Shown one piece after another: positions 4,343 to 56,672 of a stretch of DNA of 64,000 nt (position 1 is the stretch's first letter; the number at the start of each line of letters is the position of its first letter). This stretch comes from a virus. The notes beneath the pieces are model-generated. The model made no database searches and was not told the origin of the DNA. It saw only the letters and a list, made by a program, of their open reading frames with translations. The DNA lies in the IMG/VR virus record IMGVR_UViG_3300013233_000109, positions 1-64,000 of that record; one strand, given 5' to 3'. The translations under genes were made by a program, and so were the position numbers.

Positions 4343-5859
4343 TACGAAATAGCCGTGAATACTTTAACACCGTATTCTTTTTCAAAGCGTTTAGCATCAC
4401 TGCGATCATTTACCATTGGTTCACCTCTTATGTTTAGTGACGTATTTAATAAAATTGGACATCCTGTTTCTTTGTACCATGCTTCTAGTAGCTTCCTAAT
4501 ATCGCTGCCGTCATCTTGTACTGTTTGTACTCTACTAGTAAAATCCTCATGCACTACAGCCGGGAATTGATCCGGCTTGCGACATTTAGCAGTCACTTGC
4601 ATATAATCACTATCGCTAAATCCTCTGGGCATAATAAAATATTCATGCACATGCTCAGCTAAAATCATTGGAGCAAATGGTCGGAACTTTTGCCTGCGTT
4701 TAATCTCGTTTACTTGATCTTTAATCTCATCGCCGCGCGGATCTGCTAACAGCGATCTGTTACCTAGCGCACGTGGTCCGAATTCTGCTTTCCCTGATGC
4801 TACACCTGCGATTTTATGTTCTTTTAGGTGCTCTACTATTTTATCCACTGGCAATTTACTACCAATGTTATACCCGTGAAATGCATTGTTCCAGTTTATT
4901 TTCTTACCATATGCTAGTGCTGCTGCGCCTAAGCTAGAACCTGCATCGCCTGGATTAGGCATTATCCATATATTATTGTAGTACTTTCCGATTAGTCTGT
5001 TAGCACTACAATTCAATGCTACTCCGCCCATGAATACTAAATTGCCACTAATATCATAATGTTTTGATTTCGCGATTACATTACTAATCATTTGTTCGAC
5101 TACATATTGCGCGCCGGCTGCTACATCAAATTCGTTAATATTTTCATCTTGTAGCGATTCTATACCGATGTGTAAATTATCATTGAACGTAGGTGGATCC
5201 ATTGTATCTACTAGATCTCTTAGTATTTTATTAGCGGACCGGTCGACTTTTCCATATGCTGCCATTCCCATTAAAATATATTCTTCATCAAGGGGGCGGA
5301 GTCCTACAGATTTTGTAACCGCACTGTAGAATAATCCTATGCTGTTAGGGTATTTTTGACTCCACATTTTTTTATACTGTGCGAACCCATCTTTATTGTA
5401 ATGTGCCTGCCATATGCTGATTGTATCCATTTCGCCAATGGCATCAATTACTACTACTGTAGCAGCACTATATTTACTAGTCTGGAATCCTGCTGCTGCG
5501 TGTGATTTGTGATGCGTGTAACTTACTACTTTTGAATTATCTAGTAGGCGACGATGATCTACGAAATGTTCTTTTAATGTTGTGCGGAGTGTTAGATGTT
5601 TATCCACTTCTTGCCCAGCACGTAATTGTCTCCACTTTTTTAACCAGTGATTTTCGTAATATGCTATAGTACCTATTTGGCCTAACGAATTAGCATATGA
5701 TATTATTTCGCTACCTACCTCTGGATCGTGCTTCTTTTTTGTAAATCGTTCGCTGTGACTAGCGAATACAATATCCCCTGTGTTAGGATTTATTACTGTA
5801 ATACCGGCATCATGGTAGCCGGCACTGATTCCTAGAATATTTTTTTTAGAAATGGTCAT
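4342..5859 (-). CDS. O-carbamoyltransferase (NodU/CmcH/TobZ family)
   Basis: Motifs ILGISAGYHDAG, HHKSHAA, VIDAIGE, MGMAAYG, GGVALNC, GDAGSSLG, EFGPRALGNRS, KRRQKFRPFAP, LLNTSLN. Confidence 0.93.
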   Translation of the reverse strand: MTISKKNILGISAGYHDAGITVINPNTGDIVFASHSERFTKKKHDPEVGSEIISYANSLGQIGTIAYYENHWLKKWRQLRAGQEVDKHLTLRTTLKEHFVDHRRLLDNSKVVSYTHHKSHAAAGFQTSKYSAATVVVIDAIGEMDTISIWQAHYNKDGFAQYKKMWSQKYPNSIGLFYSAVTKSVGLRPLDEEYILMGMAAYGKVDRSANKILRDLVDTMDPPTFNDNLHIGIESLQDENINEFDVAAGAQYVVEQMISNVIAKSKHYDISGNLVFMGGVALNCSANRLIGKYYNNIWIMPNPGDAGSSLGAAALAYGKKINWNNAFHGYNIGSKLPVDKIVEHLKEHKIAGVASGKAEFGPRALGNRSLLADPRGDEIKDQVNEIKRRQKFRPFAPMILAEHVHEYFIMPRGFSDSDYMQVTAKCRKPDQFPAVVHEDFTSRVQTVQDDGSDIRKLLEAWYKETGCPILLNTSLNIRGEPMVNDRSDAKRFEKEYGVKVFTAIS

Positions 5860-51841: not shown

Positions 51842-53752
51842 ATGATTAAGATACGTAATCTCACCTGCAAGAACTTTATGTCCGTAGGTAACGCTAGTCA
51901 AGCTGTGAATTTCGACAGAAGCGATTTAACCCTTGTGCTGGGGGAGAATTTAGATCTCGGTGCGAATGGTTCTAAAAATGGTACGGGAAAAACTTCTCTG
52001 ATTAACGCACTAAGTTATGCTTTTTACGGTGAGGCGCTTACTAAGATACGTGTTAATAATCTCATTAACAAGACTAACGAAAAGAATATGCTTGTTAGTG
52101 TTGAATTTGATATCAATAATGATGAGTACAGAATCGAACGTGGACGCAAACCTAATTTATTAAAGTTTTACAAAAATAACCAAGACTTAGATGATGCACA
52201 GGATGATGCGCAAGGTGATAGTAGAGAAACACAAAAGGAAATTGAAAAATTACTAAATATAAGTCACGATATGTTCAAGCATACTATCGCGCTAAACACA
52301 TACACCGAGCCCTTTTTATCTATGAAGGCGAATGATCAAAAGAATATCATTGAGCAATTATTAGGTATTACCGTTTTAACAGAAAAAGCAGAATTATTAA
52401 AAGATGTTACCAAATTATCTAAAGAAGGAATTAAAGAGGAAGAATTTCGAATATCGGGACTTATTAAAGCCAACGAGCACATTGAAGAGCAAATATCAAA
52501 TCTGGAACGACGTCAGCGTATATGGCTTAAACAAAACACTTCCGACCAAGCAGATATAACGTCTGCTATTAGCGCGCTCACTGGCGTTGATATTAATCTA
52601 GAAATTGCTGCACATACAGCTAACGCAGAAGCTATTATTAATGCTGATAAAATTAATACTGCTGAGAAATTTGATATCGATAAATGTAATGCTGAATTTG
52701 CTTTACAACAAGATCAAGAGAAAGCTGAATTAACTAAACATACGTTAGCAGTTAACGAATGTAATAAATGGATTGACCGTATAGAACGCGATAATAAAAC
52801 ACTAGCACGTAATGTAACCGGCTTACAAAAGGATATTGATTTAATTAAAGATCATAAATGTCACGCTTGTGGGCAGGATTTGCACGATGCTAAGCAAGAA
52901 GAAAACATAGCGTTCAAGGAAAATGAATTACAGAAGATTGCGTTACAATTACTTACTAATCAAGAACAAGAGATGGAACATAAGCAAACACTAGCAGATT
53001 TAGGTGAGGCTCCGCTTGCTATTCCGGACGTGAACGATACTAGAGATTATGCGCCAGTTTTACCTAAAGTTATAGAAACTTTTTATAAAACGGTAAATGA
53101 GGCACATGAGCATAAATCCTCGCTCGCTACGCTCACAGCACAATTAGCTACGGTGAAGGCAGCGGTGGATCCGTACAGTGACCAGATTACAGAAATGGCC
53201 GAATCTGCTTTACAGGATGTAGATTATACTGAGATGAATCGTTTAACTGAATTAAACGCACATCAGACATTTTTGCTTAAACTTTTAACTAGCAAAGATA
53301 GCTTTATTCGTAAAAAGATTATTGAACAGAATTTAAATTATCTCAATGGGCGATTAACACATTATCTTAGCGAAATTGGGTTACCGCATACTGTAAAATT
53401 CTTATCGGATTTGTCCGTGGAGATTACAGACCTCGGTAGAGAATTGGATTTTGACAATCTAAGCAGGGGCGAGCGTACTAGACTTATTTTATCACTATCG
53501 TGGTCATTCAGAGATGTACTCGAAAGTATGTACAGTCATATTAATTTGATGTTCGTAGACGAATTAGTAGATAATGGTCTAGATACCACTGGCGTGGAAG
53601 CTGCCATTAAGATTTTAAAGGGCATGGCGAGAGAACGTAATAAATCTGTATGGCTAGTGTCGCATAGAGAAGAATTAATAAGTCGTGTTAATAACACGAT
53701 GAAAGTTATTAAAAGTAATGGCTTTACTAGCTATGAAGGGTTAAACGAATGA
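51842..53752 (+). CDS. gp46: Recombination ATPase subunit (Rad50/SbcC-like)
   Basis: KNFMSVGN, Walker A NGTGKTS, zinc hook CHACGQ, signature LSRGER, Walker B FVDE, VSH. Confidence 0.95.
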   Translation: MIKIRNLTCKNFMSVGNASQAVNFDRSDLTLVLGENLDLGANGSKNGTGKTSLINALSYAFYGEALTKIRVNNLINKTNEKNMLVSVEFDINNDEYRIERGRKPNLLKFYKNNQDLDDAQDDAQGDSRETQKEIEKLLNISHDMFKHTIALNTYTEPFLSMKANDQKNIIEQLLGITVLTEKAELLKDVTKLSKEGIKEEEFRISGLIKANEHIEEQISNLERRQRIWLKQNTSDQADITSAISALTGVDINLEIAAHTANAEAIINADKINTAEKFDIDKCNAEFALQQDQEKAELTKHTLAVNECNKWIDRIERDNKTLARNVTGLQKDIDLIKDHKCHACGQDLHDAKQEENIAFKENELQKIALQLLTNQEQEMEHKQTLADLGEAPLAIPDVNDTRDYAPVLPKVIETFYKTVNEAHEHKSSLATLTAQLATVKAAVDPYSDQITEMAESALQDVDYTEMNRLTELNAHQTFLLKLLTSKDSFIRKKIIEQNLNYLNGRLTHYLSEIGLPHTVKFLSDLSVEITDLGRELDFDNLSRGERTRLILSLSWSFRDVLESMYSHINLMFVDELVDNGLDTTGVEAAIKILKGMARERNKSVWLVSHREELISRVNNTMKVIKSNGFTSYEGLNE

Positions 53753-54283
53753 TTACTTATAGTAGATATCTATAACATTAAACTCAGTGTATAGCTTATC
53801 TAATAATTTTGTTAATTTTTGAGATTTTGGATACACTGGTACTTTCTTCTTGGGATACTTTACTTTAAATAATTTAATCATTTTATTAAACGTTGATTTT
53901 TTTATTTTTGGCTTCTTTGGAACTTCGCTCGGGTGAATAAAATAATCACCGTCCTCTGTATACGCACCGGCTTCTAGGTAATCTGCTAAATTACGCAAAT
54001 AGGTTGGCAAATCTGTTGGGTGTTTTGAAGTATCGGCACTATAATAACGTTTCCAATTGTTAGTGATCTTCCCTTCCATTGCATTTGCCCTGAATTCAAT
54101 GGCGTTGCGTATAGTTCCTTTATCAGTGGCATACGGTTCCGATTTTAGTTTATGTATATGATCTAGTGCCATTTTTTCTACCGGGACAGGAATTCCAAGC
54201 AAGGGGCAGATGCCGTTATTTTCCTTGTGAAGTTTTTCTTTAAGAATTTTAATATCCTTTTGTTTAAGCTCTTTAAATGCCAT
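53753..54283 (-). CDS. Endonuclease VII-like (gp49 family) His-Me nuclease
   Basis: Pattern N.G.CPL...LDHIH...G.IR....N.MEG...LRNLADYL..HP matches the EndoVII layout; TATAAATA at 54289-54296 precedes the ATG. Confidence 0.7.
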   Translation of the reverse strand: MAFKELKQKDIKILKEKLHKENNGICPLLGIPVPVEKMALDHIHKLKSEPYATDKGTIRNAIEFRANAMEGKITNNWKRYYSADTSKHPTDLPTYLRNLADYLEAGAYTEDGDYFIHPSEVPKKPKIKKSTFNKMIKLFKVKYPKKKVPVYPKSQKLTKLLDKLYTEFNVIDIYYK

Positions 54284-54322
54284 AGTAGTATTTATATGGT
54301 GTTAAATAAGTAGCAATAATAC

Positions 54323-54351
54323 TTGACAGATGAGTTATTATCTACTATAAT
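54323..54351 (+). promoter_or_regulatory. Perfect-consensus sigma70 promoter facing a non-coding region
   Basis: TTGACA-17 nt-TATAAT; no + strand ORF of 60 aa or more until 55265. Confidence 0.88.
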
Positions 54352-54357
54352 ATATGT

Positions 54358-54812
54358 ATATTAAGAAAAAATAGTTATCGAGATTTACGTGATAACTACT
54401 ATTACAAAACAAACATAAGCATGGCAGTACGCGGTTGATTTCTGCCAATCAAGACACTCACTGTAACACGGGGTTTCCGCTGATTAATCGAGTTTTTGTT
54501 GCTCGCTTTAACACACTACCCGAAAGGGCGCCATTAAAATTAAGACCTGAATGTGCATTGTAGCAGTCAGACAATCTTTGCTTTGTGTTATCGGAATGGT
54601 TATTTCTTAGAAATAAGAAGTATTTTAGTGAGTGGGACGTCAAGACGCCATCTAATTTATTAGATACAGTTACCCCACAATGCATTATCATTAGCTTGGG
54701 TATATAAGCTGATAATGTATACGTTGTAGATTAAATTCTAGATTCACATGTAATGGAGAGAACGTTAACCTGCTCCCCTCTAGCGATAGAGTTATGCTAT
54801 ATACCCTGTGGC
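54358..54812 (+). ncRNA. Candidate large structured non-coding RNA, family not recognised
   Basis: Nested long-range helices, two GNRA tetraloops (CCC-GAAA-GGG, CTCTA-GCGA-TAGAG) and a 9-bp loop-to-downstream pairing; lies behind the consensus promoter. Ends are approximate. Confidence 0.72.
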
Positions 54813-55188
54813 TAAATCTTTAAAGAACTTTTCTTTTGATTTCGTATCATTTAGTAGTTTGATTCTGTGGCTTTAAAATCTTTTAAAATTGCTTTAAAAA
54901 ATGAAGTTCTCATTTAACTCTCAGTTCAGGTCTGCCTACTATTCACTACGTTCATAGCAGTCATTGATTCATCTCATCTGAGCTGAGAATCATCGATTTA
55001 CTTCTTTATTTCTTTTAGCTGATATATAAGCAAAAACATATACATCTCTCATATAACAGTCAAAATATATTACAATATCTAAATTAATTAATTCTGAAAG
55101 AATGCTGTACGAGTTAATGAAATTAACGATGTATTCATTCTATACGAGCACAGCGAAGTATAGACATGAAAGAGAATTGCTGCCACAG
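54806..55188. other. Candidate replication-origin-like element
   Basis: AT-rich tract; CTGTGGC twice plus one inverted copy; opposite-facing hairpins with tandem GA/GA mismatches and 3-nt loops. Confidence 0.45.
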
Positions 55189-55264
55189 TATATCATTAAA
55201 CTCTAGTAATGACTAAAGCATCAAGAATATTATTAACCTGTGTTTAAACACCATAAATACAAGT

Positions 55265-55561
55265 ATGAATATAAATGACTTAAAAGGCTCGAGCGATATC
55301 TATTATTTAGGTAGGGCAATGTGGAAAAAACAAGAAAGTGCTACATGGCAAAAGAAAGTTAAAAAATTAGCTAAGACTACTAAAACTCACTGGTCTGGAA
55401 ACGCAAGCAATGCCGATGCGTTCAGTGTTTCAAAATCATATAAATTATTCAATGAAAGCACTAACAAAGTAGTAGCAACCATAACAGAATCTGAATTAAA
55501 AATGCTAAAACACGCTAGTGTAAAAATACGCTCGGAACGTGACGGGATCTTAGACTGGTAG
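55265..55561 (+). CDS. Hypothetical basic protein, late and apparently leaderless
   Basis: 98-aa ORF; CATAAATA at 55252-55259 lies 5 nt before the ATG. Confidence 0.65.
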   Translation: MNINDLKGSSDIYYLGRAMWKKQESATWQKKVKKLAKTTKTHWSGNASNADAFSVSKSYKLFNESTNKVVATITESELKMLKHASVKIRSERDGILDW

Positions 55562-55614
55562 CTAAATACCGACCTACCACAAAATACATCATTTTTGTAA
55601 GGTAGTGATATTTC

Positions 55615-55851
55615 TCAAAAGTACGGAAGCCCACTCTTTTCTGTCGTTTTCATATTCTCTTTAGATAGTTTAGCGATCATATCGCGTTCTGCTGCAGATA
55701 AATTCAAACAATCGTTGTATTGAATACCACCACGCATAGCCCAGGTTAGGCTCATAGCGTTCTCTTTAATGATATTACATTCCTTTTCTAAGTCATCAAC
55801 ATAAGCGGAAATAGCCTCGGCATCGAGGGCCAATAACTTTACTCGAAAAAA
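55615..55851 (-). CDS. Tail-chaperone C-terminal extension, probably reached by -1 frameshift
   Basis: The -1 frame is open from the T TTT TTC heptamer: FFRVKLLALDAE..W.MRGGIQY...L...ER..ENMKTTEKSGLPYF; the TTG start has no SD. Confidence 0.65.
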   Translation of the reverse strand, partial: FFRVKLLALDAEAISAYVDDLEKECNIIKENAMSLTWAMRGGIQYNDCLNLSAAERDMIAKLSKENMKTTEKSGLPYF

Positions 55852-56672
55852 GACGTCATATCCAGTGTAAACGGCTGTTCGTACTTATGTCCGCAATCAT
55901 CACACGTAATAGATAATGGTTTAAGATCAGTTTTAGCACGCTCGCTAACAATATGAGATTTGATACCGTTGTAAATAGCTCTCTCACAATTCTGTAGATA
56001 CGCTAAAATATGTTCTGGATCATCCACTACGGCACCCGGTACAGCTATATTACTAATATTTTTCACAAGCGTATCTAGTGTGTATTTAGAGACTTTTTTA
56101 AATGCGTCCGATAACAGTTTAATACGCTCCTTCTCAGGAAGTGTATCATCTTGCTTAACAATCATTTGCTGTAATTGCTGTTCTTCAAATTGAATCTGAT
56201 TATTCTCATTCATCTCGAAATAAGTTAACGGTTTAAAAGTAACAGAAATATCACCAGCATCAAACGTATTATGATAATCTGGCGAATGTAAATTATCTAG
56301 CACATCGTGTAAATTTAGTTCATAATCGGACATTTCGTTGCATTCGGGGCAAGTAGTGCTAATCTCCATATTATGTGAGAAGCTAGCTATACGTATCGCA
56401 GCTAATATAGCAGTAATATCAATGCTCGGCATTTGCCACGGATCAATTATACTAGGAATACAGCTTTTAATAACATCAACTAGTGCTGAACCATTGAATA
56501 GTGCATCTGGGGTTCGATAAGTAATTTCGTCCAATGATGTCATAGGATAAACAGGCAGTTCTTTCGTCTCGGGCATATCTAACGTACCCTCGGGATAAAA
56601 GCTACCTTTGCTCGGTAGTGCTAGGTGTATTGCTGGTTTGCGGAAGTAGCCCGCTAGTGGATTTTCATTCAT
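55839..56672 (-). CDS. Baseplate hub/tail assembly chaperone (gp26-like)
   Basis: LPSKG, PMT..DE, AIRIAS, CPEC and CDDC Zn motifs, C-terminal LDMTSFF; divergent from the tape-measure gene. Confidence 0.75.
   Translation of the reverse strand: MNENPLAGYFRKPAIHLALPSKGSFYPEGTLDMPETKELPVYPMTSLDEITYRTPDALFNGSALVDVIKSCIPSIIDPWQMPSIDITAILAAIRIASFSHNMEISTTCPECNEMSDYELNLHDVLDNLHSPDYHNTFDAGDISVTFKPLTYFEMNENNQIQFEEQQLQQMIVKQDDTLPEKERIKLLSDAFKKVSKYTLDTLVKNISNIAVPGAVVDDPEHILAYLQNCERAIYNGIKSHIVSERAKTDLKPLSITCDDCGHKYEQPFTLDMTSFFE

What the first reader, a model, noticed from the sequence alone, without database searches (positions are those of the whole stretch)
54323..54812. Unrecognised ~400-450-nt pseudoknotted RNA behind a perfect sigma70 promoter
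Seen: TTGACA-17-TATAAT fires into ~900 bp with no credible ORF. The transcript folds into a nested multibranch domain. CACTCACT(54455-62)/AGTGAGTG(54627-34) encloses TTCCG(54475-79)/CGGAA(54592-96), which encloses TAACACA(54509-15)/TGTGTTA(54584-90). Internal hairpins include CGAG..CTCG, CCC-GAAA-GGG, CTGA..TCAG and TTATTTC-TTA-GAAATAA. A long hairpin at 54677-54727 exposes GGGTATATA(54698-706), the exact complement of TATATACCC(54798-806), which gives a 9-bp pseudoknot or switch. A second GNRA hairpin, CTCTA-GCGA-TAGAG, lies at 54778-91, and CATAA(54414-18)/TTATG(54792-96) could close the fold. The GNRA loops and G.U pairs read correctly on the promoter strand. Inference: a highly expressed phage ncRNA. 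It could be a ribozyme, a protein scaffold or decoy, a partner of the divergent EndoVII-like nuclease, or a replication pre-primer. I do not recognise it as tmRNA, RNase P, 6S or a group I/II intron.
Basis: partly seen in the sequence, partly recalled or inferred. Interest (0 to 1): 0.88.

Follow-up and report, generated by a model that had tools for sequence, protein, structure and literature searches.

The report
Likely divergent Polynucleobacter-1-type phage RNA
A gene-free kilobase behind a perfect bacterial-type promoter in an uncultured T4-like phage lies where more than a hundred related phages carry a large folded RNA of unknown function, and it probably holds a heavily altered copy of that RNA, not a new kind.

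Summary
The sequence facts hold. TTGACA-17-TATAAT at 54323-54351 is the only 12/12 promoter match in 64 kb. The proposed nested, pseudoknotted fold is not better than chance: MFE z is -0.9, and perfect 7-9-nt inverted repeats are as frequent as in shuffles.

The gap has no Rfam hit and no homologue in any collection I could search, so covariation could not be tested.

The gap lies in the gp46 | orf72-gp26 slot, on the gp46 strand. In 111 related IMG/VR loci that slot carries a covarying RNA of about 450-500 nt. Its first third is Rfam Polynucleobacter-1 (RF01718). This scan has already described that full-length RNA on other genomes.

Every profile test for membership was negative (the Rfam model, two models of my own, two nhmmer profiles). 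A post hoc structural descriptor of the family's three-way junction hits the 64-kb window once, at 54509-54590 on the + strand. It hit nothing outside family RNAs in 2.6 Mb, and 2 of 3000 shuffles.

Best reading, confidence 0.5: a strongly diverged, promoter-driven derivative of that slot RNA. Rivals are a decayed relic, an unrelated leader of orf98, and a DNA-level element. Interest is moderate.

The parts
54323..54351 (+). Sigma70-type promoter, TTGACA-17-TATAAT; predicted start near 54358
   Evidence: 12 of 12. It is the only 12/12 site on either strand of 64 kb. The start site is inferred from the usual spacing and has not been mapped.
54372..54398 (+). AT-rich leader hairpin (8-bp arms TAGTTATC / GATAACTA)
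   Evidence: A perfect inverted repeat, so it reads the same on both strands. Its role is unknown.
54423..54446 (+). Hairpin GGCAG-14 nt-CUGCC, at the place of family P1 (86 nt before P4; about 83 nt in L036)
   Evidence: Sequence and the fold. It is compatible with the family layout, but hairpins of this kind are common by chance, so it is not evidence on its own.
54489..54505 (+). Hairpin CGAG-9 nt-CUCG directly before P4, at the place of family P3
   Evidence: Sequence and folds. Compatible only.
54509..54590 (+). Three-way junction. P4 is 54509-54515 with 54584-54590. The junction letters ACUA are at 54515-54518. P5 is CCC-GAAA-GGG at 54519-54528. P6 is 54547-54550 with 54567-54570 and has a 16-nt loop. 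An alternative P6 is 54530-54535 with 54550-54556.
   Evidence: The descriptor of the family junction hits only here in the window, both strands searched. It hit 2 of 3000 shuffles and nothing outside family RNAs in 2,626,192 bases. The minimum-energy fold of this segment alone gives exactly P4, P5 and P6, though z is only -0.23. The alternative P6 is my reading of the sequence.
54600..54720 (+). Run of local hairpins: 54600-54616, 54635-54649, 54650-54665, and the long hairpin 54680-54720
   Evidence: The window 54600-54719 has z -3.7 on + and -2.5 on -. The long hairpin alone has z -3.0 on + and -2.8 on -.
54778..54791 (+). GNRA hairpin CUCUA-GCGA-UAGAG
   Evidence: The window 54760-54879 is structured on the + strand only (z -2.9 against -0.45).
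54806..54872 (+). Two identical 8-mers CTGTGGCT (54806-54813 and 54865-54872), 59 nt apart; a possible counterpart of the family's twin boxes
   Evidence: Spacing in the family is 44-66 nt, mostly 50-59. Taken alone it is weak: 66 of 2000 shuffles give such a pair.
55182..55188 (-). Third, inverted copy of CTGTGGC at the far side of the AT-rich half of the gap
   Evidence: 3 of the window's 7 copies lie within 54806-55188. Its role is unknown.
54287..54306 (-). Late-promoter-like leader (TATAAATA) of the EndoVII-like gene; the left arm of an inverted repeat that brackets the gap
   Evidence: (I8: 54295-54306 with 55244-55255, 92% complementary) and the sequence. The T4 late-promoter consensus is recalled, not tested.
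55244..55264 (+). Matching leader (CATAAATA) directly before the 98-aa ORF; the right arm of the same repeat
   Evidence: It suggests that orf98 has its own late promoter.
55265..55561 (+). 98-aa orphan ORF downstream of the gap
   Evidence: It has no relative among 5.8 billion clusters except itself, and none in IMG/VR.
55574..55605 (.). Hairpin between the convergent orf98 and orf72; the first terminator-like structure downstream of the promoter
   Evidence: z -1.75. No intrinsic terminator was found on the + strand inside the gap.
53753..54283 (-). EndoVII/HNH-like nuclease gene, divergent from the candidate RNA
   Evidence: phrog_423 at 7.5e-22; Pfam Endonuclease_7 at 23.0 bits, just under its 23.6 cut-off. 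Copies 81-83% identical lie beside the divergent RNA of L012 and L013.

Best explanation
The gap is this phage's version of the 'slot RNA' that related T4-like phages encode between the recombination-nuclease gene gp46 and the convergent orf72-gp26 baseplate genes. That RNA is about 450-500 nt, and its first third is the Rfam motif Polynucleobacter-1.

In this phage host RNA polymerase would start at the perfect sigma70 promoter, near 54358, and transcribe the + strand. Nucleotides 54423-54590 would be a much altered core: P1- and P3-like hairpins, then the P4-ACUA-P5-P6 three-way junction with lengthened junction strands. Local hairpins, one of them GNRA-capped, and two identical 8-mers follow up to about 54872.

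The RNA would act as a folded RNA, not as a message. As in the family, what it binds is unknown, and it lies beside a small nuclease gene.

Shown here: the promoter match, the absence of ORFs, the slot and strand, the family's covariation, and the junction match. Inferred: transcription, the ends of the transcript, homology rather than convergence, and any function.
For: 1. Slot and strand. The pattern taken from the family's P6 loop found 117 IMG/VR stretches. I dropped 6 as chance hits, which left 111 loci. Of those, 89 have a neighbour related to a window protein: gp46 in 76 and gp47 in 57, upstream on the RNA strand; orf72 in 63 and gp26-like in 61, downstream on the opposite strand. This is the window's own gene order.

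2. The family is a real RNA on that strand. In the junction 98.7% of cells pair, 10 of 15 pairs change on both sides, and 0 of 500 shuffles reach that. Its G-U pairs read correctly only on this strand. In the 3' extension 16 of 20 predicted pairs show compensatory changes.

3. The nearest relatives, L002/L012 and L013 (gp26-like 58% identical, nuclease 81-83%), carry a divergent form in the same place, also divergent from the same nuclease gene. nhmmer places them in the family at E = 8e-12 and 4e-12.

4. The junction descriptor has one hit in the window, both strands searched, at 54515. It hit 2 of 3000 shuffles of the gap, 74 of 108 family cores, and both L002 and L013. Over 2,626,192 bases of fetched loci it made 83 hits at family RNAs and 0 elsewhere.

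5. The letters of the window's P4 and P5 recur at the homologous place in family members: TAACACACTACCC in the L036 type and ACTACCCGAAAGG in L121. The pattern made of the window's own P4-J-P5 start and its P4' strand found 7 IMG/VR stretches. All 7 have the 59-nt span seen in L036. Six are loci already collected by the P6-loop pattern, and the seventh lies on a contig that holds others.

6. On the + strand 2 of 3 tetraloops are GNRA, against a background of 29 of 1016.

7. Two identical 8-mers lie 59 nt apart, 3' of the core, as in the family's twin boxes.

8. This is the only 12/12 sigma70 site in 64 kb.
Against: Every unbiased profile test failed.

- RF01718 gave nothing at its gathering score on the whole window, nothing at E<=10 on 54200-55350, and nothing in the whole 72.9-kb record.
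- My core model R1 gave no hit in the gap at E<=10 over the window, and only AT-rich noise when the gap was searched alone.
- My junction-only model R2 did not list 54509-54590 among its 10 hits.
- nhmmer with the full-length phage profile and with the bacterial-form profile found nothing in the gap.
- Smith-Waterman scores against four family RNAs equal those of shuffles, z about -0.2.

The family's most constant letters are missing. GAGGTAnCGGnnnACCGCCT has 0 matches at up to 3 mismatches. AAGGCTAAA has no match in the gap at up to 1 mismatch. The 16-nt P6 loop agrees at only 9 of 16 positions by my count.

The descriptor was written after I had seen the window. Its junction lengths were widened and the P6 loop letters were left out so that the window could fit, so its p-value is optimistic.

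Shared 13-mers alone mean nothing: 783 of 2000 shuffles share 13 or more letters with the family. The 8-mer pair alone is weak: 66 of 2000 shuffles, and about 25 such sites in the window.

L012 and L013 keep their RNA better than their proteins. An ortholog under the same constraint should still be recognisable, which favours decay or replacement.

The folds are thermodynamically ordinary. There is no transcript evidence and no + strand terminator inside the gap.
Confidence: 0.5

Rival explanations
1. Decayed relic. The lineage once had the slot RNA and lost the need for it. What is left is a drifting, AT-enriched remnant in which only the junction is still recognisable. The promoter serves the orphan orf98, or nothing.
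For: The family's constant motifs are lost and all profile searches fail. Fold energies are ordinary, and junction strands are lengthened by 14 and 12 nt by my reading. Sister phages keep their RNA highly conserved, so so large a change suggests released constraint. No terminator lies before orf98.
Against: A 12/12 promoter, unique in 64 kb, lies about 65 nt upstream of the P1-like hairpin. P4, P5 and P6 are all still perfectly paired. GNRA loops occur on the + strand only. Phage genomes seldom keep a kilobase of dead DNA (general knowledge).
Confidence: 0.2
2. Unrelated sequence. The gap and orf98 came in as one foreign cassette: promoter, long leader, orphan gene, terminator. It replaced the ancestral RNA. 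The junction match is coincidence, and any structure serves as a 5' leader of orf98.
For: Neither the gap nor orf98 has a relative anywhere I could search. Similarity to L012 and L013 stops about 25-30 nt upstream of the nuclease start codon and resumes at orf72. The first terminator-like hairpin after the promoter is at 55574-55605.
Against: The descriptor's false-positive rate is 0 in 2.6 Mb, and its single window hit is in the right slot on the right strand. orf98 has its own late-promoter-like leader that mirrors the nuclease gene's. A 900-nt leader is unusual for a phage (general knowledge).
Confidence: 0.15
3. DNA-level element. A strong promoter is followed by AT-rich DNA and repeated protein-binding sites, as in the transcript-primed replication origins of T4 (oriF, oriG; recalled from the literature), or as in an operator region.
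For: Of the window's 7 copies of CTGTGGC, 3 lie in 54806-55188, two direct and one inverted, around a core of 28-29% G+C. Most helices are perfect inverted repeats that read the same on both strands. GCTTTAAAA(T) is repeated about three times at 54870-54899.
Against: No initiator gene or iteron array was identified. GC and AT skew follow gene orientation and show no turn specific to this place. This reading does not explain the junction match or the slot. I had no test for origin function.
Confidence: 0.07
4. Unannotated small protein genes fill the gap.
For: ORFs of 34-77 aa exist.
Against: Of the 4 gap ORFs scanned, 0 match PHROGs at E<=1. tblastx of the gap against 149 loci plus the rest of the window gave nothing below E = 0.3. 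Three of the four + strand ORFs start with TTG or GTG, and I saw no ribosome-binding site by eye.
Confidence: 0.03

Closest known systems
Polynucleobacter-1 RNA motif (Rfam RF01718; Weinberg et al. 2010, Genome Biol 11:R31, PMC2864571). I saw the search listing and the one table row that names it: RNA 'y', cis-regulatory 'y', switch '?', Burkholderiales and fresh water/estuary.
   Same: Three-way junction: a closing helix, the junction letters ACUA, a short CC...GG hairpin, then a second hairpin. In phages it occupies the same genomic slot and strand.
   Different: The window scores below every threshold with the Rfam model and with my own models. Its junction strands are 14 and 12 nt longer and its P6 loop letters differ. 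By the family's own criterion it is not a member.
The full-length 'twin-box' phage form of that RNA, described earlier by this scan on other genomes (e1-3440727, e1-5401479, e1-5987928 and others) and seen again here in 111 IMG/VR loci.
   Same: Length class (the family is about 450-500 nt; the window's candidate is about 450-650 nt). Position after gp46, with a small nuclease gene beside it. Two identical short words 50-60 nt apart in the 3' part.
   Different: The canonical form follows a SegE-like GIY-YIG gene on the same strand (77 of 100 loci). A sigma70 consensus upstream is rare: 1 of 77 distinct upstream regions at 12/12 and 1 at 11/12. The window has an EndoVII/HNH-like gene in divergent orientation and a perfect promoter, and it lacks the AAGGCUAAA and GAGGUAC...CCGCCUC motifs.
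The divergent subfamily in L002/L012 and L013, the window's nearest relatives
   Same: The same neighbours (EndoVII-like gene, orf72, gp26-like), the same orientation, and a weak or absent Rfam score: 17.3 bits in L002.
   Different: L002 and L013 are still recognised by the family profile (E about 1e-11), keep the constant motifs, are G+C-richer by eye, and have TATAAATA upstream, not a sigma70 site. No sequence similarity to the window gap was found.
Large phage-associated RNAs of unknown function such as GOLLD and ROOL (recalled from the literature; both are in Rfam)
   Same: Several-hundred-nucleotide structured RNAs carried by phages, with no known role.
   Different: No Rfam match of any kind in the window. 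Nothing was tested beyond that.

Membership tests
Polynucleobacter-1 RNA (RF01718) | Score at or above the curated gathering score (37 bits) of the Rfam covariance model | tested here: not met
   There were 0 hits in the window at gathering scores. RF01718 was not among the 4 hits at E<=10 on 54200-55350, and the 72.9-kb record gave 0 matches. Positive controls scored 46-101.5 bits in L003, L010, L032, L064, L106 and 8 genome loci.
Polynucleobacter-1 RNA (RF01718) | Three-way junction P4 / ACUA / P5 (CC...GG) / P6 / P4' | tested here: met
   The descriptor hits 54515 only. It hit 2 of 3000 shuffles and nothing outside family RNAs in 2.6 Mb. The family junction covaries. The descriptor was written after I had seen the window.
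Polynucleobacter-1 RNA (RF01718) | 5' hairpins P1, P2, P3 and the GGGAYGGAA linker | tested here: inconclusive
   Hairpins at 54423-54446 and 54489-54505 lie at the right distances, but such hairpins are common by chance. I saw no linker match, and the core model R1 gave nothing.
Full-length phage form (twin-box RNA) | Profile similarity over the roughly 450-nt RNA | tested here: not met
   nhmmer with a profile of 80 family segments gave L032 3e-67, L003 7e-61, L013 4e-12 and L002 8e-12, and no hit in the window gap. Smith-Waterman z was about -0.2.
Full-length phage form (twin-box RNA) | Constant motifs: P6 loop AUAUGCCUNCAUACAA, linker AAGGCUAAA, hairpin GAGGUAnCGGnnnACCGCCU | tested here: not met
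   The P6 loop agrees at 9 of 16 positions by my count. The loop does vary in genome-borne members.
Full-length phage form (twin-box RNA) | Position between gp46 and the convergent orf72-gp26 genes, on the gp46 strand, beside a small nuclease gene | tested here: met
   The nuclease is of another type (EndoVII/HNH, not GIY-YIG) and faces the other way.
Full-length phage form (twin-box RNA) | Two identical short words about 50-60 nt apart in the 3' part | tested here: inconclusive
   CTGTGGCT occurs at 54806 and 54865, 59 nt apart. In the family 68 of 75 distinct 3' parts have an identical 7-mer pair. But 149 of 278 random 230-nt window pieces also do, and 66 of 2000 shuffles give a G+C-containing 8-mer pair.
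Any structured RNA | Compensatory base changes in homologues of this very sequence | not testable with these tools
tmRNA, RNase P, 6S, group I/II introns, known ribozymes, GOLLD/ROOL | Match to the Rfam model | tested here: not met
   no tRNA or tmRNA, and the 4 sub-threshold Rfam hits are unrelated junk at 17-23 bits.
T4-type transcript-primed replication origin (oriF, oriG; recalled) | Promoter followed by a DNA-unwinding element from which a persistent RNA-DNA hybrid primes synthesis | not testable with these tools
   A promoter and AT-rich DNA are present. No computation here can show origin activity.

The most novel reading that the evidence does not exclude
The slot RNA and the small nuclease gene beside it are a functional pair: the RNA is the nuclease's homing target, regulator or guide. 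In this lineage both partners changed together. Canonical RNAs go with a minimal GIY-YIG nuclease. The divergent L002/L013 form and the far more divergent window form go with an EndoVII/HNH-like nuclease. The window RNA would then be a retargeted, early-expressed version whose remaining constant part, the ACUA three-way junction, marks the functional core.
Probability: 0.1. Interest if true: 0.8.

Novelty: new variant of a known kind. Interest (0 to 1): 0.4.

Why it matters
The full-length Polynucleobacter-1-type RNA is one of the commonest conserved non-coding elements of uncultured aquatic T4-like phages, and nobody knows what it does. If the window's version is expressed and functional, it is a natural deletion-and-replacement experiment. 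It keeps the three-way junction and perhaps the paired short words. It has lost the otherwise constant loop and linker letters, and it has acquired a consensus host promoter. That would narrow down which parts matter, and it would give a construct that E. coli-type RNA polymerase should transcribe without phage factors. If it is only a relic, it shows that the RNA is dispensable in at least one lineage, which also limits the possible functions.

Tried and rejected
Searches for homologues of the gap itself found nothing usable.

- blastn (distant mode) against 50,697 phage records: no match.
- blastn with word size 7 against loci around the relatives' gp26-like and nuclease genes: no match inside the gap.
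- tblastx and relaxed blastn against 149 loci plus the rest of the window: nothing below E = 0.3 and E = 0.004 respectively, and the hits are scattered AT-rich matches.
- Exact IMG/VR patterns: a 23-mer gave 0 hits. A 17-mer gave 6 hits with no similarity beyond the word.
- Anchors: orf98 gave 0 relatives in IMG/VR and only itself among 5.8 billion clusters. gp26-like in JGI metagenomes gave 11 loci, the best 45% identical, none a close relative. L022 and L024 from that set have other genes after orf72 and no such slot.

Sequencing runs. No RNA holder is listed for the stretch. Run X1 is a microbial-mat metagenome whose kind ('DNA?') is guessed. When laid, it gave one 251-nt contig identical to 54449-54688, ending in adapter letters, at word depth 12.7. 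Nothing else covered 53600-55900 except two 37-nt pieces at 81-84% identity. The RNA run X2 (5 million letters) and X3 gave nothing. The contig could be one duplicated fragment or the window's own source sample. I draw nothing from it about expression or about RNA ends.

Thermodynamic tests I set aside as uninformative. A genuine family RNA (L032) scores z = -0.74.

Shared k-mers with the family are rejected as evidence on their own. The search for sigma70 or TATAAATA sites upstream of family RNAs showed no common promoter: the best match was 9 of 12 or fewer in 74 of 77 distinct upstream regions, and TATAAATA occurred in 0 of 77. RNAalifold on a MAFFT alignment of 60 full-length family segments gave no useful consensus. 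The R1 hit at window 4576-4716 on the minus strand (19.6 bits) lies inside a 505-aa ORF, and I take it as a false positive.

Literature. 'Polynucleobacter-1' and 'RF01718' each return only Weinberg et al. 2010 in the held library. A search on T4-like, noncoding RNA, gp46 and structured RNA returned 6 papers, none of them about this RNA judging by title and abstract start. Supplements were not opened. Those of Weinberg 2010 may say more about the motif's neighbours.

I made no structure prediction, protein-complex prediction or atlas search, because no protein question was open.
Full report
What is there. The window is part of a 72.9-kb IMG/VR record of an uncultured T4-like phage, estimated 21% complete. 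Around the finding the genes are gp47-like and gp46-like (SbcC/Rad50-type, 51842-53752, +), an EndoVII/HNH-like nuclease (53753-54283, -), a 981-nt gap, a 98-aa ORF (55265-55561, +), a 72-aa ORF (55615-55833, -), a gp26-like baseplate hub gene (55839-56672, -) and a long tail protein gene. The gap starts with TTGACA-17-TATAAT at 54323-54351. That is the only 12/12 match on either strand of the 64 kb. No ORF in the gap is credible: the longest is 77 aa on the minus strand, the + strand ORFs are 34-42 aa, and 0 of 4 scanned match PHROGs at E<=1.

Is the fold more than chance? Mostly not. The 476-nt candidate has z = -0.92 on the + strand and -1.25 on the minus strand. The proposed multibranch domain 54455-54634 has z = -1.39 and -2.33. 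Perfect inverted repeats of 7, 8 and 9 nt are as frequent as in dinucleotide shuffles: 154, 113 and 390 of 1000 shuffles reach the observed counts. The 8-bp outer helix and the 9-bp pseudoknot therefore carry no weight. In a sliding scan only 54600-54719, 54760-54879 and 55120-55239 fall below z = -2.5, the last two on the + strand only. The gap averages z = -0.77 on + and -0.72 on -, against -0.13 and -0.09 in the flanks. The test is weak, though. A genuine, covarying RNA of the family described below scores only z = -0.74 (L032), while another scores -2.85 (L002). One strand-specific signal exists: 2 of the 3 tetraloop hairpins on the + strand of 54352-54830 are GNRA, against 29 of 1016 in the window and 0 of 4 on the minus strand.

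Databases. Rfam 15 gives nothing at gathering scores in the window and four unrelated sub-threshold hits in the gap. ARAGORN finds no tRNA or tmRNA. The gap has no DNA match among 50,697 phage records, none in IMG/VR by two exact patterns, and none in any locus I fetched. orf98 is an orphan too. The anchor-protein scan of JGI metagenomes found no close relative; the best was 45% identical.

The slot. The nearest relatives are L002/L012 and L013 (gp26-like 58% identical, nuclease 81-83%). They have an ORF-free stretch at the same place. It is more conserved between them than the flanking genes and has obvious compensatory changes, for example TTACTT/AAGTAA in one against TCCACC/GGTGGA in the other. 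Rfam gave a weak Polynucleobacter-1 hit there (17.3 bits) and strong ones in more distant relatives: 80 bits in L003 and L010, 101.5 in L032.

A pattern from that motif's P6 loop found 117 IMG/VR stretches. I dropped 6 as chance hits (L044, L045, L066, L073, L103, L145), leaving 111 loci. Of these, 89 have a neighbour related to a window protein. gp46 (76) and gp47 (57) lie upstream on the RNA's strand. orf72 (63) and gp26-like (61) lie downstream on the other strand. In the 50 loci that hold both gp46 and orf72, the distance from stop to stop is 963-4673 nt. In 77 of 100 loci with enough upstream DNA, a 142-aa SegE-like GIY-YIG gene fills the first part and ends just before the RNA.

Conservation and covariation run about 330 nt past the 141-nt Rfam motif. 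In that extension 16 of 20 predicted pairs have compensatory changes. In the P4-P5-P6 junction 98.7% of cells pair, 10 of 15 pairs change on both sides, no shuffle of 500 reaches this, and the G-U pairs fix the strand. The slot therefore holds a real RNA of about 450-500 nt on the gp46 strand. That is the strand and place of the window's candidate. This scan had already described the full-length RNA, with two identical short words in its 3' part, on several other genomes. In the held literature only the 141-nt motif is named, in Weinberg et al. 2010.

Is the window's gap a member? By every unbiased measure it is not. The Rfam model fails. So do a core model from 54 sequences (R1), a junction-only model with a curated structure (R2), nhmmer profiles of the phage form and of the genome-borne form, and Smith-Waterman against shuffles. 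The family's constant motifs are absent.

One test is positive. I wrote a descriptor of the family junction with these parts: a closing helix of at least 6 bp; ACUA; a CC-initiated hairpin of 3-4 bp; a 4-bp hairpin with a 14-18-nt loop; then the closing strand. The junction lengths were widened so that the window could fit, and the P6 loop letters were left out. It finds 74 of 108 family cores, and L002 and L013. It hits the 64-kb window once, both strands searched, at 54515 on the + strand, and 2 of 3000 shuffles of the gap. Over 2,626,192 bases of fetched loci it makes 83 hits at family RNAs and none elsewhere.

The letters agree as well. TAACACACTACCC and TTTGTGTTAT are identical to the P4-J-P5 start and the P4' strand of the L036 type. 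ACTACCCGAAAGG equals L121. The stretch after P5 (CGCCATTA) equals the start of P6 in the genome-borne form. Shared 13-mers are not significant by themselves: 783 of 2000 shuffles do as well. What counts is that they fall at the homologous place. A pattern made of the window's own two P4 strands found 7 IMG/VR stretches, all with the 59-nt family spacing. Six are loci already collected, and the seventh is on a contig with others.

Two further traits are compatible with membership but weak. Hairpins lie at the P1 and P3 positions, with nearly the family's P1-to-P4 distance (86 nt, against about 83 in L036). Two identical 8-mers lie 59 nt apart, 3' of the core. I noticed the repeated word before reading the earlier notes about twin boxes.

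Reading. The prior from synteny is strong, and the descriptor has a very low false-positive rate. Set against the post hoc design and the failed profile searches, I put about 0.6 on the junction being homologous. I put 0.5 on the fuller statement that the gap encodes a diverged, promoter-driven version of the slot RNA. The transcript would start near 54358. Its end is unknown. There is no + strand terminator in the gap, and the first terminator-like hairpin is at 55574-55605. The RNA may therefore be processed from a longer early transcript that also covers orf98. orf98 and the nuclease gene each have a late-promoter-like leader, and the two leaders form an inverted repeat around the gap. The sigma70 promoter is thus not needed for orf98 late in infection. 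What the RNA does is unknown, as for the whole family. I take it to act as a folded RNA that binds a partner through the junction. That is inference.

Rivals. A decaying relic (0.2) explains the lost motifs, the ordinary stability and the contrast with the well-kept RNA of L012 and L013. It does not explain the perfect promoter or the intact pairing of all three junction helices. An unrelated cassette with a long leader of orf98 (0.15) explains the orphan status of both the gap and orf98, but it needs the junction match to be coincidence. A DNA-level element (0.07) is suggested by three CTGTGGC copies around a 28-29% G+C core and could coexist with the RNA. I could not test it. Small proteins (0.03) have no support.

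Novelty and limits. This is not a new class. It is most likely a strongly divergent variant of a catalogued but unexplained family whose full-length phage form this scan has met repeatedly. It fails the family's formal membership criterion, so I do not file it as a member. Its value is as an outlier that may mark the indispensable core, or as a case of loss.

Noticed in passing
L106:9446-9950 (minus strand); likewise L032:1300-1740 and about 110 other loci: The Rfam Polynucleobacter-1 motif (141 nt) is only the 5' third of an RNA of about 450-500 nt that fills the space up to the stop codon of the convergent orf72. The 3' part has its own covarying helices (16 of 20 pairs) and constant motifs. 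Earlier notes of this scan say the same.
   Followed up: partly
L106:9950-10378 (minus); L032:1756-2184 (minus): A 142-aa SegE-like GIY-YIG domain protein (Pfam PF19835, E about 1e-33) lies directly upstream of the RNA on the same strand in 77 of 100 family loci with enough flank. The window, L012 and L013 have an EndoVII/HNH-like gene facing away from the RNA. Nuclease type and RNA form change together, but relatedness of the phages could explain that.
   Followed up: partly
L002:7238-7790 (minus); L013:4173-4750 (minus): This is a divergent subfamily. The core is enclosed by an 18-bp helix that uses the otherwise single-stranded AGGCUAAA motif, there are extra insertions, and TATAAATA lies upstream.
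   Followed up: partly
L165:3118-3203 and L184; window 54554-54561 with 54677-54684: A possible pseudoknot between the P6 loop and the downstream linker. Canonical members can pair GCCU(U) with (A)AGGC. L165 and L184 have GCCUAUU in the loop and AAUAGGC downstream, 7 bp. In the window the P6 loop has an 8-nt perfect complement 116 nt downstream. About 2.7 such 8-mer pairs are expected by chance in the region.
   Followed up: partly
L160, L162, L169-L172, L176-L181, L187 (genome contigs, several named Polynucleobacter): Genome-borne RF01718 members (86-98.5 bits in the 4 of this form that were scanned) share the P4-ACUAUCC...GGACG module but have a short P6 (7-nt loop) and a different 3' continuation. 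The family's constant core is therefore the junction and P5, not the P6 loop.
   Followed up: partly
L049, L052, L062 (and L156), all on one 327,256-nt IMG/VR contig: At least three separate stretches of one giant-phage contig carry the P6-loop pattern, so that genome may hold several copies of the RNA.
   Followed up: no
window 54287-54306 and 55244-55262: The gap is bracketed by an imperfect inverted repeat. On each side it is the leader just before a start codon (nuclease gene, orf98) and contains TATAAATA or CATAAATA, which look like T4-type late promoters; that consensus is recalled.
   Followed up: partly
window 54806-55188: CTGTGGC occurs three times here (two direct, one inverted) out of 7 in the window. 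GCTTTAAAA(T) is repeated about three times at 54870-54899.
   Followed up: partly
window 54449-54688: Run X1 holds one 251-nt contig identical to this stretch, ending in adapter letters, at word depth 12.7, with nothing on the flanks. The cause is unknown: it may be a duplicated fragment or the source sample.
   Followed up: no
L014-L017: Copies of the EndoVII/HNH-like gene, 63-78% identical, lie in unrelated contexts with no similarity in their upstream 1.7 kb. The gene therefore looks mobile.
   Followed up: partly
window 55265-55561: orf98 has no relative in 5.8 billion protein clusters except itself.
   Followed up: yes
L047, L048, L036: A few canonical family RNAs do have a sigma70-like site just upstream: 12/12 in L048, 11/12 in L047, and a TATAAT about 40 nt before P1 in L036. 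Most (74 of 77 distinct upstream regions) reach 9 of 12 or fewer.
   Followed up: partly
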